Origin: Octopus sinensis
Taxonomy: Eukaryota
Direction of reading: 5' to 3'
DNA length: 64,000 nt
Assembly (NCBI RefSeq): GCF_006345805.1
Contig: NC_043012.1
Location: 2,294,001 to 2,358,000, forward strand
Part shown: positions 50,522 through 64,000 of the stretch, piece by piece
How the letters are laid out: the number at the start of each line of letters is the position of its first letter
Position numbering within the stretch: position 1 is the stretch's first letter
Program-made: the position numbers and the translations under genes
The notes under the pieces: model-generated
What the model was told of the DNA's origin: nothing
Seen by the model: only the letters and a program-made list of their open reading frames with translations
Databases searched by the model: none

Positions 50522-50561
<40 letters not shown>

Positions 50562-50565
<4 letters not shown>

Positions 50566-51209
50566 TAAGCAATAAAGGGTTTAGCAACGAATTGCCTTAC
50601 CACATACCGAATTTAGAAATAGCAGTCAAAGAGTTATAGCTATTTCTTCTACTAAAAAGGGAGATCTCAGTAAAAACAGCAATTGGAAGGCAGACACAAA
50701 CAGGTAAGAGAGAATGAATTGACGGCAATCTATCATACAATTTTAAGTTATCTACGGACGTACGTTTCGAAATCAAGTCTTTAGGAAAGCATAAGAATTA
50801 AATATTAAATAATTCTATCTTACCAAAAACTTCTTTTCTCTTCAGCGTAGAATACTATAATTATAAATGATTATATATTGAATTTTGAGATACTAGAAGG
50901 CACCAACTCAACTCAGTATCAGAGCGAGCTAGAATCCGCAACTAGTATCACCAAATTCAATGCGTGAATGAAAAGATTGTGTCACCAGCCCCTTCCCACC
51001 CGCGTGTAGCCAAAACAAGATGCTGTGGTCATCTACTGAGATAAAATATGGTTATCCGTAATAATGAAGGGTGAAATTAATTAATTTGGAATAATTATCA
51101 ATTACACCAAGTAGTCTTCGGCATGTAAAAGCCTCATTCGAGGAAAATTTAAGTAATACTAAGCAATAAAGGGTTTAGCAACGAATTGCCTTACCACATA
51201 CCGAATTTA
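50562..51209 (-). mobile_element. Non-coding hammerhead-bearing retroelement (retrozyme / Penelope pseudo-LTR-like), 594-bp unit with 54-bp direct terminal repeats, inserted in (TA)n
   Basis: atactaagcaataaagggtttagcaacgaattgccttaccacataccgaattta occurs identically at 50562-50615 and 51156-51209; both outer flanks are (TA)n; intact hammerhead core inside; no long ORF. Confidence 0.8.
50751..50851 (-). ncRNA. Type I hammerhead ribozyme, apparently intact
   Basis: Minus strand reads UCUACG-CUGAAGA-[GAAA..long helix II..UUUC]-GAAA-CGUACG-UC-CGUAGA: 6-bp helix I, both core boxes canonical, palindromic helix III, GUC cleavage triplet (predicted cut between 50757 and 50756). Confidence 0.88.
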
Positions 51210-53421
51210 TATATATATATATATATATACATACATACATACATATATACATACATATATATATTCAACAAGCTTCTACACAGTTTTCATTTACCAAATT
51301 CACTCACAAGGCATTGGTCAATTCAAGGCTGTAATAGTAACCACTTGCCCAAGGTATGCTTAGTGGGACTGAACTCAAAACCATGTGGTTACAAAGCAAG
51401 TTTCTTACCCACACAGTCATGCCTCACATTAAGTTTTGTCTCTTTACCACTCAGTCTCTATCTCCTCAACACTGTTCCATGAGCCTGTTGGGGAGCCTCT
51501 GCATTCATTTGGCCTGTTAGAAATACAAACCATACCTCCCTCAAATCAAGCCATACAATCTTTGAAAAGAAGGGACATATTGTAAATAGTATATTGTATT
51601 CACTGTGCCTTTGAAAAATATAGGATGGCTTTATCTGGAATACCTTAATGGGTCTGCTCAATTTGGTCCTGCAAGAAGCTGGACAGTGATTTTTTTTTCA
51701 CAAGCCAGTGATAGAATCTCTATGTAATTTTGTTTTTATTTATTTATTTTTTTGTCAGACAGGCCTAAATCAGACATGACTTTTTATAGGGTCTCTATGA
51801 TTGGTTAGAGGAAGGTATCCCCAAACCAAAAATCTGGCCTGAATGCTTGTTGCAAAGTGGACTTCACTGAAGACACCAATGTGTTTTAAACCAGATGATG
51901 TATTATGTAGATTTGTTAGAAATGACAACCAAATCTTCTTGAAGTCACATCTTACCATCTCAAGGAAAAGAGGGATACTTTAAATAATGTAACCTTTGAA
52001 AACTAGCTGGTTTGGGCATGGATGGAATAGTTTTGATCATAGGTCTGCTGCATCTGACCTATCTGGAGATAAACAACGGATACTATGTTATATGGTGCGT
52101 TTAAGTTAACTTGTGATAAATGTATGATGAGGAAATTAAGGAAAATAAATAAAAAAACAATATTATTTACTGCCCAATATTATTTTTACTTCTCTGGCAA
52201 GTAAGGGAAGACAACTCTGAATGTGTTTTAACTTCATTCTGACCTTTACTAGCAACACGTGCCTTTGCTTGTGTTTACTGAAAATTATACATTTGTTGAT
52301 GTTGAAAAATAGAATTGTTTAGAAATGAGATATCGTAACGTTATTTTGTACTCGTTTCAACTGTTGAGTGTTTGGTTATGTAATCCTCTGTTTTCTTTCA
52401 TCTCAGTCTTCTCTATAAAGTGAGAAAATGCATTTTTTTTGTTTTGGTTTCGTTTCTTCACGGCTTATTTCAGCTTGTATCTCGAAACTTATCTCCATTT
52501 CTTTTCATCAGGGATATTTTTGTTTGTTTTTTTTTTCTCTCTCTTATTCATGCAGTGTAGATATGGTCACATGGCTAAGAAGATCACTTCACAATATGGT
52601 TCTCAGTTCGATTCCCACTGTGCTTTATCTTGAGCAGTTTTCTTCTCTCATTGCCTTGGGTCAACCTAAGTCTTGTGAATGTAATTAGATAAGTGGAAAT
52701 GGTATAGAAGCCTTGATAGGTGGATGATATATATTCTTGTGTGGTGGTGTAAATCCATTGGTTGGTTTAACACCCCCATCACCACTTGGTTGTTGGGTGT
52801 CTTTGGTGAAGTCCATCTGTTGCAAGTGAGGGCACATGGTTTAGTGGTTAGGTCGTTGGACTCGCAGTCATTAGCTTGTAGAGTGTAATTCTCAGGTTAC
52901 GTGACATGCTGTGTCCTTAAAAGCAAAGTACTTCATCTCACACTTCTCCAATACATTCAAGTGAAAATTAGTAACAGTGGGCACCTGAGGTGCAGATGAC
53001 AGGGTTGACCTTGCAGCAGACTAGCATCTTGTTCAGAGATGAATATAGAACTCTCAGTCTAAACCCCTTGAAAATTCAGTTAAATTCTGGCTTCGTTGGC
53101 CTATAATCTCAAGGCTGTGTTTGTGTGTGTGTTGCAAATTTCAAGCTAAGTCTCTCATCAGAGGAAAACCCCTGAGTCATGGTTTCTTCTCTTCCCAGGC
53201 TTGGAAATTTTACAAAGGGCCATGGATGCTGCTTTTTTTGCTCTTCTGACTAAGCCCTTCAAAAATAATCTTACATATCAGTCAGTCTGTGATTTACTAA
53301 GTTTGGTGGTGGTGGGGGGATTGATAGAAAAGGACCTGGTGTCTCAAGGAAATAATTTTTTTCTTCTTGAAACAGCACTGTTCAAAAATTTCAGTATATT
53401 TTGTTTAAAATCTGTGTGTGT

Positions 53422-54163: not shown

Positions 54164-54522
54164 CATGGTTCTTGACCTGTGAGAAATAGCAGCTAAATTC
54201 CCTTAAATCAACAAGAGCCTCTACATGGTTTTTGACTTGTTAGAAATAGCAGCTAAATTCCTTTAATCAAGCCAGTAAAGGAGCTTTCACGTAATTATTA
54301 CCTGTGAGAAATAGCAGCTAAATTCCCTTAATCAAACAAACGACAGAGCCTCTACATGGTTCTTGATCTGTGAAAAATAGCAGCTAAATACCTTTAAACC
54401 AACAAAAGGGCTTCTACATGGTTTTTGATTTGTTAGAAATAGCAGCTAAATTCCCTTATTCAAACCAACAAAGTAGACTTTATATGATTCTTAATCTGTT
54501 AGAAAGAGCAACTAAATTCCCC
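54164..54522 (+). repeat. Six-copy degenerate minisatellite, 60-66-bp unit
   Basis: Core (g)aaatagcagctaaattcc at about 54183, 54243, 54308, 54374, 54436 and 54502, each preceded by a catggtt.ttga..tgt-like sequence. Confidence 0.85.
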
Positions 54523-55900: not shown

Positions 55901-56023
55901 CACACACACACACTTTTATGTGTATATATAATCTTTTGTATGTATATACATTTATAAAAATGCATTATATAAATGATTAGTGTTGATCTAGTAACTGATC
56001 TTATTCTTTCTACTGTTTTACAG

Positions 56024-56174
56024 ACTTTTCGACCCAAGAAGCGGTTTGAACCTGGCACCATGAAGTATGAACTTCACAAACAGGCCAATGCCTCGCTGAA
56101 TGCTGGCATTGATCTGAAAGAAGTTGTCCGTTTACCACCAAATGAAGATATAAATGACTGGATTGCCGTACATG
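56024..56174 (+). CDS. MOB3: Internal coding exon of MOB kinase activator 3-like gene (phase 0 start, phase 1 end)
   Basis: Translates to [50 protein letters not shown](V), matching the N-terminal MOB3-family pattern TFRPK..FEPGT...LHK.A.ASL..G.DL...V.LP..ED.NDW.AVH. Pyrimidine-rich acceptor ttctttctactgttttacag ends at 56023; donor gtatga starts at 56175. Flanking exons were not found in the window. Confidence 0.93.
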
Positions 56175-57084
56175 GTATGACTTACTTTTCAATATTTTAT
56201 TCAATGAATGCTTATGTCTTTGTTTTTACATTTGCTTTCAAGTTCCTCTTCTTAGTTGTCCTCATCGTCATCCTATCACCATCTATTTTGACGTGCCCAC
56301 CCCCCACACACAACAAGCTGTTATATGAAGAATGTGTTTTGCTGAGAGAGATTTTCGCTAGTGACATTTTGAGTGACTAGGGGGTTCTCACTGGATATTA
56401 CTTGTGTTTTGGTGTTTTTTCAAGGGGGCAGGAATGTATAGTATTTGAGGAAGGTTTTTTGGTGTTAATAGAGGCAAGATTGGCACAGCTCCTTTGGTAG
56501 GTGTCCTTCAAGTTTCCCTTTTGATCCTGGAATCAATGAAGGTTTGGTATTTGCTGCCTAGGTTGTGTGTGCAGATGATCAGATGATGCATAGTTGGGGA
56601 AGGTTGGGGCAAAATGAAGGGTCATATCATTTGTACAAAAATGAGCAGTGTTGTTGGATTGAAAATAGGTTCTTGATGTACAGAATGAAGAGGGTTGGGA
56701 ACTAAACTGGTCCCTGGGGCATACCGGAGTTGCTTGGGAGCAGGAAAGAAAGAGCTCTTTCGACACCTATTGCTATGATGCAGTCTTATAGGAAGCCATT
56801 AGCAGTTGCTAATAGTCTACAAGGCCCAGGTCAAGCCCAGAATAGTGCATTGCTCCCTTATCTGGGATAATACTGCTACTGCTACACACACAAATATCCT
56901 ACACCACAATCAGAGAAGGGACATTCAACTGATTGGCATTAACCCTTTGGCATTCCTATTAAGCATTATCTCATAATTTCAAGATTTTGATGATATGATT
57001 GCCTATTTTTAGAATGACATAGTAGGGCAGGTGTGAGAGGCCAGACCTGGCCAGTTTAAATGCTAATGGGTTAAATTACTAACA

Positions 57085-63169: not shown

Positions 63170-64000
63170 AACAGAGATGCTGGGTCAAAGCTGCTGGATG
63201 TAATAAACAAGATCTGTGAAGTTTCCAGAAGATCTGAGTGAATCCATTTTTGTTGCATGCCTGAAGAAATCAGGGGCAGTGGACCGTGAACAACATTGCA
63301 TAATTAGTCTAATGAATCACGTTACAAAGATCATTCTGAGAATTTTACTCCTGTGGACAAGAAGCAGAATAACATCCGAGATTGGAATTGAGCAGTTAGG
63401 CTTTGTAAAGAGTGCTAGTGTTAGGAATGTTATTTTTGTATTGAGAATGGTAACAGAGTGGGCGGTGGAGATGCAAAAAGACATCCTTGCGTGTTTTATA
63501 GATTACACAAAAGCCTTCGACAAAGTAAGTCATAATATGTTATTTGAAGAACTCGGTAACCTTGATCCACTTGTGAAAGACCTCCGAATCTTGTAACCAA
63601 TCAGTGTGCATAAAGGTAGATAGGGAAGGCAGTGAATGCACTAACATCAGGAGAGGGGTCAGGCAAAAAAGTGTTATGTCACCAACTCTTTTCAATTCAA
63701 TTACTATCGCGAATCGATCATAAGAGAACTGGAAAGGGAGAAAAAGGGTTGTAGGGTAGGAGGCAGAAACATCACAAACATAAAGTATGCAGATAACACA
63801 GTCTTACTTGCAGAATCGGAAAAGGAACTCCAGAGACTTCTGGATGAAAGACTTCTAGTCAGAGAAAGTGAGAGGAAGGGCCTGTTTGTAAATTGCCAGA
63901 AGACAAGGTGTATGGTGGTGAGAAAGAAGTGAATGATCAAATCATTAGGCGGGTACCTTGGAACTTTGATCACAGAAGATGCAAAATGTGTAAAGATCAA
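63170..64000 (+). pseudogene. Degenerate RTE-clade LINE reverse transcriptase fragment, runs off the window end
   Basis: FPEDLSESIFV..KK..A...EQH..ISLMNHVTKII.RIL, EQLGF, FIDYTKAFDKVSH, GVRQ..V.SPTLF, KYADNTVLLAESEKELQRLL and YLG motifs in RT order, with stops and frameshifts. Confidence 0.9.

What the first reader, a model, noticed from the sequence alone, without database searches (positions are those of the whole stretch)
50562..51209. Retrozyme-like 594-nt element with an intact hammerhead and terminal redundancy, inserted in (TA)n
Seen: a non-coding 594-bp unit whose first 54 bp recur exactly at its end, flanked by (TA)n, with a complete type I hammerhead on the minus strand (helix I UCUACG/CGUAGA, CUGAAGA, GAAA, palindromic CGUACG, GUC site). 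Known: Penelope pseudo-LTRs and metazoan non-LTR retrozymes carry type I hammerheads with palindromic helix III that act as dimers. Inferred: 1.09 units with the ribozyme internal rather than at a terminus is what reverse transcription of a circular or multimeric RNA would leave, so this may be a cephalopod circRNA/retrozyme family mobilised by Penelope RT. Identical terminal repeats suggest a recent insertion.
Basis: partly seen in the sequence, partly recalled or inferred. Interest (0 to 1): 0.88.

Follow-up and report, generated by a model that had tools for sequence, protein, structure and literature searches.

The report
Ribozyme-bearing parasite of Penelope retrotransposons
This is one young copy of a thousand-copy, protein-free jumping element that carries a predicted self-cutting RNA and inserts into TA repeats from two fixed start points, likely copied from an RNA circle by borrowed Penelope retrotransposon enzymes, which makes the open question of how such animal elements move testable.

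Summary
In detail: 594-nt unit, 54-nt exact repeat, (TA)n flanks, complete type I hammerhead on the minus strand. It is one copy of a young family (1,616 exact ribozyme motifs in the genome) inside a superfamily of ~545-640-nt units (11,911 copies of a shared motif). Copies are not random permutations. They start at one of two fixed points, A and B, ~100-110 nt apart, joined to (TA)n, run for up to ten tandem units, and stop anywhere. The 54-nt repeat is just such a stop, not a terminal repeat. Inverted insertions pair A with B (33 of 36, never A with A), reach 11.6 kb, and carry no ORF. This is the Penelope 'tail' signature of internal priming. A covarying RNA structure spans point A, and ribozyme helices covary across sister families. 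Copying reads through the cut site without pile-up, so the template is a circle (favoured) or an uncut multimer. Self-cleavage, circles and the partner enzyme are not shown. One transcript contig joins a splice donor inside the ribozyme loop to a host cyclophilin mRNA. Verdict: a non-LTR retrozyme, new variant of a known kind.

The parts
50524..50563 (.). (TA)n target at the fixed outer end
   Evidence: 1,595 such junctions genome-wide
50564..51157 (-). One full 594-nt unit (u1-u594); RNA is the minus strand; 50564 is fixed start point A of the DNA copy
   Evidence: strand from ribozyme, G-U pairs and splice direction
51158..51209 (-). First 52 nt of a second unit, ending at a random truncation joined to (TA)n
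50751..50851 (-). Type I hammerhead: helix I 50851-50846 with 50756-50751, core 50845-50839, GAAA 50768-50765, palindrome 50765-50758, predicted cut 50757/50756
50818..50824 (-). Splice donor (exon ends 50824) inside the helix II extension of the ribozyme
   Evidence: first five letters invariant in 34-35 diverged segments covering them; used in one transcript contig
50616..50646 (-). Conserved hairpin of the shared 3' module
51117..51205 (-). Multi-branch stem (51205-51197 pairs with 51125-51117) that encloses point A and spans the unit junction
51046..51064 (-). Fixed start point B (u483-501), internal in this copy, outer end in others
51208..51264 (.). TA/TACA run at the truncated end

Best explanation
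This is a protein-free, high-copy tandem element with a conserved type I hammerhead motif and two fixed (TA)n-joined ends, likely a non-LTR retrozyme that is copied into the genome by a Penelope-like reverse transcriptase/GIY-YIG endonuclease acting in trans on a circular RNA. Shown: family size, no ORF, fixed points A and B, A-with-B polarity of inverted insertions, read-through of the cut site, covariation of ribozyme and module. Inferred steps: (1) tandem copies are transcribed on the minus strand; (2) neighbouring ribozymes pair through the palindrome and cut to 594-nt monomers, which ligate to circles where a lone ribozyme is quiet; (3) the Penelope protein binds the structured module, nicks (TA)n and primes internally; (4) nicks on both strands prime at A and at B on the same RNA; (5) synthesis rolls for a variable distance, then the end is joined to the target (this window's copy, 1.09 units) or one cDNA switches onto the other, giving a palindrome with A at one end and B at the other.
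For: Copy number: 1,616 exact 17-nt ribozyme motifs, control 0; 1,595 (TA)n/A junctions; 355 junctions of one B variant. Polarity: of 71 A-anchored ends 37 have an inverted arm; of 36 far ends in view 33 lie at u483-501 and none at A; of 20 B-anchored ends, all 13 inverted ones with the far end in view finish at u1-5 (the sets overlap). Same pattern in sister families. Two internal start sites giving a 'tail' are what a purified Penelope protein does (PMC11167929), and two autonomous RT/GIY-YIG families in this genome end in (TA)n with alternative ends ~35 nt apart. Same template for both arms: arm-to-arm difference is no greater than the median to other loci in 37 of 37; arm ends correlate (rho 0.84; 13 of 36 within 15 nt, 2.5 expected). 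Read-through: 26 of 67 complete arms pass u198 and 1 of 68 ends lies at u188-198; the cut site is seamless in 269 of 294 spans (overlapping loci counted repeatedly). For a circle: nine units differing by 0-2 substitutions and six identical units, private variants fixed in all units of several arrays, a 21-unit insertion, median arm only 139 nt so linear sources would shrink (inference), circular fold z -4.6. Selection on RNA: helix I and the palindrome change compensatingly across families; module 94% paired, 18 two-sided changes, 0 of 500 shuffles as high.
Against: No partner found: none of 62 Penelope-protein loci carries the module at its own end. The A-B distance (~100-110 nt, ~120-135 in one sister family) is three times the published 30-40-nt tail. 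Some arrays are not uniform: three units differ by 4-8 substitutions in L306, and the outer units of both arms of L313 mirror each other (1 difference against 4-6), which a single monomer circle does not explain. In the Penelope assay uncut RNA was the main substrate and ribozyme mutants still inserted; 8 of 9 frog retrozyme dimers did not cleave in vitro. Uniform arms could also come from gene conversion. The covariation shuffle ignores relatedness, and part of the ribozyme conservation test is biased because loci were fetched by that motif.
Confidence: 0.62

Rival explanations
1. Same non-autonomous Penelope-mobilised element, but the template is an uncut linear multimer transcribed from genomic arrays; the ribozyme acts elsewhere in the cycle or weakly.
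For: Mirrored outer units in L313 and uneven units in L306, L309; uncut RNA is the main substrate of the one purified Penelope protein; long source arrays exist.
Against: Only 8 of 67 complete arms exceed one unit, so arrays would shorten each round unless regenerated; arrays of 6-9 near-identical units with fixed private variants; ribozyme conserved in at least eight sister variants.
Confidence: 0.27
2. The unit is the pseudo-LTR or 3' end of an autonomous Penelope element that I did not find; these copies are its truncated products.
For: All insertion features are Penelope features; only 150 of 5,029 GIY-YIG candidates were scored.
Against: Units follow units directly for up to ten rounds with no ORF; no hit of two Penelope proteins within 500 nt of any insertion and no shared continuation other than sister-family sequence among 272 distinct ends.
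Confidence: 0.07
3. DNA-level amplification (satellite expansion, Helitron-like rolling circle) or long-read fold-back artefacts.
For: Tandem arrays; a few local duplications (L310, L151/L152, L003/L027).
Against: Dispersed insertions with unique flanks, asymmetric A/B ends, one-strand RNA covariation and a conserved ribozyme.
Confidence: 0.04

Closest known systems
Metazoan non-LTR retrozymes (PMC7229834; bioRxiv 10.64898/2026.07.22.740005)
   Same: Non-coding tandem units with one type I hammerhead each, GC below 50%, weak palindromic helix III, monomers to multimers, proposed Penelope-driven copying of circles.
   Different: Unit 594 nt (170-400 in the 2020 paper, within 51-972 in the 2026 preprint); helix II extended to 70 nt; a conserved structured module and two fixed priming points, whereas PMC7761336 states that animal retrozymes show no conserved motif pointing to a partner; strict (TA)n targeting and long palindromes; circles not yet shown here.
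Penelope-like elements, EN+ clades (PMC8557442, PMC11167929, PMC4209133)
   Same: Partial tandems, inverted 5'-truncated arm, tail at one end only, two internal start sites, (TA)n preference, type I hammerhead, spliceosomal signal next to the ribozyme.
   Different: No ORF; tail ~100-110 nt instead of 30-40; no sequence match to any Penelope end examined.
Non-autonomous Chlamys elements such as MRC1 (PMC8557442, passage)
   Same: Non-autonomous Penelope derivatives with multicopy head-to-tail insertions.
   Different: Those resemble their partner's 3' end and the clade lacks canonical hammerheads; here a full ribozyme is kept and the partner is unknown.

Membership tests
Non-LTR retrozyme | Type I hammerhead in each tandem unit | tested here: met
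Non-LTR retrozyme | Tandem arrays of two or more units in the family | tested here: met
   (this copy has 1.09 units)
Non-LTR retrozyme | Non-coding, GC below 50%, no LTR | tested here: met
   72 aa longest frame, GC 35%; repeat length varies between copies
Non-LTR retrozyme | Highly self-paired predicted circle | tested here: met
   circular fold -154.7 kcal/mol, z -4.6 on 30 shuffles; other strand z -3.5; linear z -6.1
Non-LTR retrozyme | Self-cleavage in vitro | not testable with these tools
   only folding: dimer -55.6 against 2 x -21.6 kcal/mol
Non-LTR retrozyme | Accumulation of circular RNA | tested here: inconclusive
   contigs of 4 of 4 runs laid cover the unit and span the cut site, but contigs cannot show circles
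Non-LTR retrozyme | Target-site duplication when present | tested here: inconclusive
   hidden in (TA)n
Autonomous Penelope-like element | ORF with reverse transcriptase and GIY-YIG endonuclease | tested here: not met
Non-autonomous Penelope derivative | Partial tandem and inverted truncated arms in microsatellite targets | tested here: met
Non-autonomous Penelope derivative | Tail at one end from two internal start sites (30-40 nt in print) | tested here: met
   two sites with strict polarity, but ~100-110 nt apart
Non-autonomous Penelope derivative | Sequence similarity to the end of an autonomous partner | tested here: inconclusive
   none in 62 loci from about ten families; most candidates unseen

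The most novel reading that the evidence does not exclude
A superfamily of ~550-640-nt RNA circles in this genome carries a conserved loading structure that makes the two halves of a Penelope enzyme dimer start at two set points on one circle and roll out palindromes up to 12 kb, and the same RNA can donate its 5' half, from a splice site inside the ribozyme loop, to host mRNAs in trans.
Probability: 0.15. Interest if true: 0.82.

Novelty: new variant of a known kind. Interest (0 to 1): 0.52.

Why it matters
How animal retrozymes move is stated as open: a 2020 review says they show no motif pointing to a partner (PMC7761336) and a 2026 preprint links them to Penelope elements by co-occurrence and frog pseudo-LTR similarity, leaving the mechanism unresolved. 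This family gives a physical signature (two fixed priming points, strict polarity, a covarying RNA module around point A) that predicts exactly where a Penelope protein should start, in an assay that already exists (PMC11167929). It also offers hundreds of simple, young, ORF-free insertions for working out how Penelope inverted structures form, and an active source of large palindromes and chimeric transcripts in this genome. The class itself is known, which caps the surprise.

Tried and rejected
Rfam scan: no hammerhead family matched; only microsatellite-driven miRNA hits far below cut-off. Partner hunt: GIY-YIG search, two young families with intact 781- and 775-aa frames, 20 further loci, profile and covariance-model scans: module hits were separate insertions nested in TA runs (L053, L102, L108, L046; L315). 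Three family motifs were absent from the Naiad/Chlamys/Hydra supplement of PMC8557442, a weak negative because its sequences are line-wrapped. A Pfam family recalled from memory was not in the library; one protein query had stops and was dropped. Pile-up of ends at the ribozyme cut: absent. Pile-up at the splice donor: 4 of 49 ends, p 0.01 post hoc, not used. A peak at u248 is an alignment artefact of a 7-nt insertion. Lock-step of two enzymes with a 105-nt offset: 2 of 36 fit against 13 of 36 for no offset. Sequencing runs: no RNA holder listed on record; runs X1 and X2 had no cover on the host exon. With ~1,600 copies, trace DNA or intron read-through could give the unit's contigs, so independent expression is not claimed. 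No cis copy of the element in the donor orientation in 160 kb upstream of the cyclophilin exon, two 100-N gaps aside. Earlier scan notes: nothing in three look-ups.

Full report
Coordinates: u1-u594 number the unit from window 50564 on the + strand; the RNA is the minus strand.

Observation. The 594-nt spacing, the exact 54-nt repeat, the TA flanks and the hammerhead are all there. The descriptor hits 0 of 2,000 shuffles. The lone ribozyme folds helices I and II but leaves helix III open; two copies pair through the palindrome, -55.6 against 2 x -21.6 kcal/mol. Rfam did not detect it.

Family. A search of the genome gave 1,030 first-look candidates, 40 scored, with full-length matches 97-100% identical. 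A 17-nt ribozyme motif occurs exactly 1,616 times, control 0. Older copies go down to about 75% identity. The nearest copies differ from this one by 2 substitutions. Twenty sequencing runs under four organism labels hold at least half of the sampled words.

Anatomy of insertions. Outer ends fall at point A (u1) or point B (u483-501) and abut (TA)n: 172 of 178 such ends among 272 distinct ends in view, though many loci were fetched by that junction; loci fetched by similarity or by the ribozyme show the same. There are 1,595 TA/A junctions and 355 of one B variant. I examined 71 of the first 75 listed A junctions (four were already held and skipped). Thirty-seven have an inverted second arm; of 36 far ends in view, 33 are at B, three elsewhere, none at A. 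Of 20 B-anchored ends, 13 are inverted with the far end in view and all finish at A; three are not inverted; four run out of view. Arms range from 25 nt to over ten units; the median complete arm is 139 nt and 8 of 67 exceed one unit. The largest insertion is a palindrome of about 21 units, 11.6 kb, with no ORF. The window's copy is an A-anchored, non-inverted arm that stopped 52 nt into its second unit. No hit of two Penelope proteins lies within 500 nt of any insertion.

Both arms come from one template variant: in 37 of 37 scored insertions (38 tried) they differ no more than the median to other loci. Their stop points correlate (36 pairs; three with a far end away from B were left out): 13 lie within 15 nt against 2.5 by permutation. 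Stops do not gather at the ribozyme cut: 1 of 68 ends at u188-198, and 26 of 67 arms pass it.

Superfamily and RNA structure. A motif near point A occurs 11,911 times in sister families with units of about 545-600 nt and about 641 nt. Most variants read carry a type I hammerhead on the same strand, 120-138 nt upstream of the motif, with compensating helix I pairs and different but still palindromic helix III; in a few variants my scan found no intact ribozyme. Their inverted insertions mostly show the same A/B polarity. An alignment of 15 variants folds into a hairpin, a multi-branch stem that closes around point A across the unit junction, and a tail hairpin: 94% of cells paired, 18 two-sided changes, 0 of 500 shuffles as high, slid controls 37-49% (the shuffle ignores relatedness). 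One-sided changes are G-U on the minus strand. Among 49 diverged segments no core or palindrome column departs by 15% or more (0 of 17 against 127 of 577, p 0.03; partly biased by how loci were fetched).

RNA. Contigs of four runs guessed to be RNA cover the unit and span the cut site; most carry variants of related subfamilies rather than this copy. Runs X10 and X12 hold a spliced cyclophilin mRNA, so they contain RNA. In X10 one 1,346-nt contig joins u533-u263 of the element to that mRNA. The join fits a GT donor in the ribozyme's helix II extension, in a variant seen in 28 of 221 motif matches, and an AG acceptor 31 nt inside the colinear 5' end seen in X12. G000 has no copy in the donor orientation within 160 kb upstream. 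This is one contig in one run: a polymorphic upstream insertion or trans-splicing. It independently gives the minus strand as the RNA. Circles cannot be seen in contigs.

Mechanism. Published Penelope insertions show partial tandems, an inverted truncated arm, a 30-40-nt tail at one end and (TA)n preference (PMC8557442, passages and supplement searches). A purified Penelope protein nicks both strands of AT-rich DNA and starts at two internal sites that define the tail; its ribozyme was dispensable (PMC11167929, parts 1-2 of 4). Two autonomous families here, with RT and GIY-YIG, end in (TA)n with alternative ends about 35 nt apart, but share no module with this element. I infer priming at A and B from the two nicks on one RNA, rolling synthesis, and a switch of one cDNA onto the other. 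A circle is favoured by uniform long arrays and by the need to regenerate length; L306, L309 and L313 are uneven or mirrored and fit a multimer or fold-back better.

Comparison and novelty. Non-LTR retrozymes are described in coral, mussel and axolotl (PMC7229834, parts 2-3 of 6 and passages; no mention of octopus or cephalopods in its text). Circular templates for more-than-unit copying were proposed in PMC4209133 (parts 1-2 of 4), which also notes an intron end at the fly Penelope ribozyme. The 2026 preprint (parts 1-3 of 5) ties vertebrate retrozymes to Penelope elements. PMC7761336 (passages) says no conserved motif points to a partner. Six searches of the held library listed no description of this family, of a conserved priming module or of A/B polarity in retrozymes; repeat databases and subscription journals were not searchable, so it may be catalogued under another name. 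Verdict: real, a new variant of a known kind, interest 0.52.

Noticed in passing
L202:1015-1195 and L214:3134-3862 (G000:C22 near 14.75 Mb): A cyclophilin gene with a signal-like N-terminus; in run X10 its first exon is joined to the element's 5' half at splice-like sites, in X12 it is colinear.
   Followed up: partly
L237:1600-2420: One insertion joins a ten-unit array of this family to an inverted piece of a ~555-nt sister family without a TA run between them: template switch between families or a deletion after nested insertion.
   Followed up: partly
L091-L105; L098, L192-L201: Two young autonomous Penelope families with intact 781- and 775-aa RT/GIY-YIG frames, an upstream overlapping frame (479 aa in L091), (TA)n ends and ~35-nt tails; the 781-aa family has a minimal hammerhead with the U3-A8 core variant.
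   Followed up: partly
L093, L094, L098, L009, L128, L129, L151, L208, L215, L262: Many other type I hammerhead motifs with different palindromes lie in the fetched flanks, unrelated to the module: the genome likely holds further retrozyme families.
   Followed up: no
window 54164-54521: A 66-nt tandem of an abundant repeat shares about 13 letters with the module motif; relation unknown.
   Followed up: no
window 55973-56203: Exon of a Mob1/phocein-family gene on the + strand (E 8e-6, just under the Pfam cut-off); the element lies 4.8 kb upstream, ribozyme strand antisense.
   Followed up: partly
L302-L303 (G000:C1 95.52-95.53 Mb): An 11.6-kb palindrome of about 21 units persists in the assembly, with a further copy 1.6 kb away.
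   Followed up: partly
L003 and L027; L018 and L019; L093 and L094: Pairs of loci share flanks and insertion, so they are duplications of one event.
   Followed up: partly
window 63207-63932: Broken reverse-transcriptase-like frames of a LINE at the window's end (read from the ORF list).
   Followed up: no
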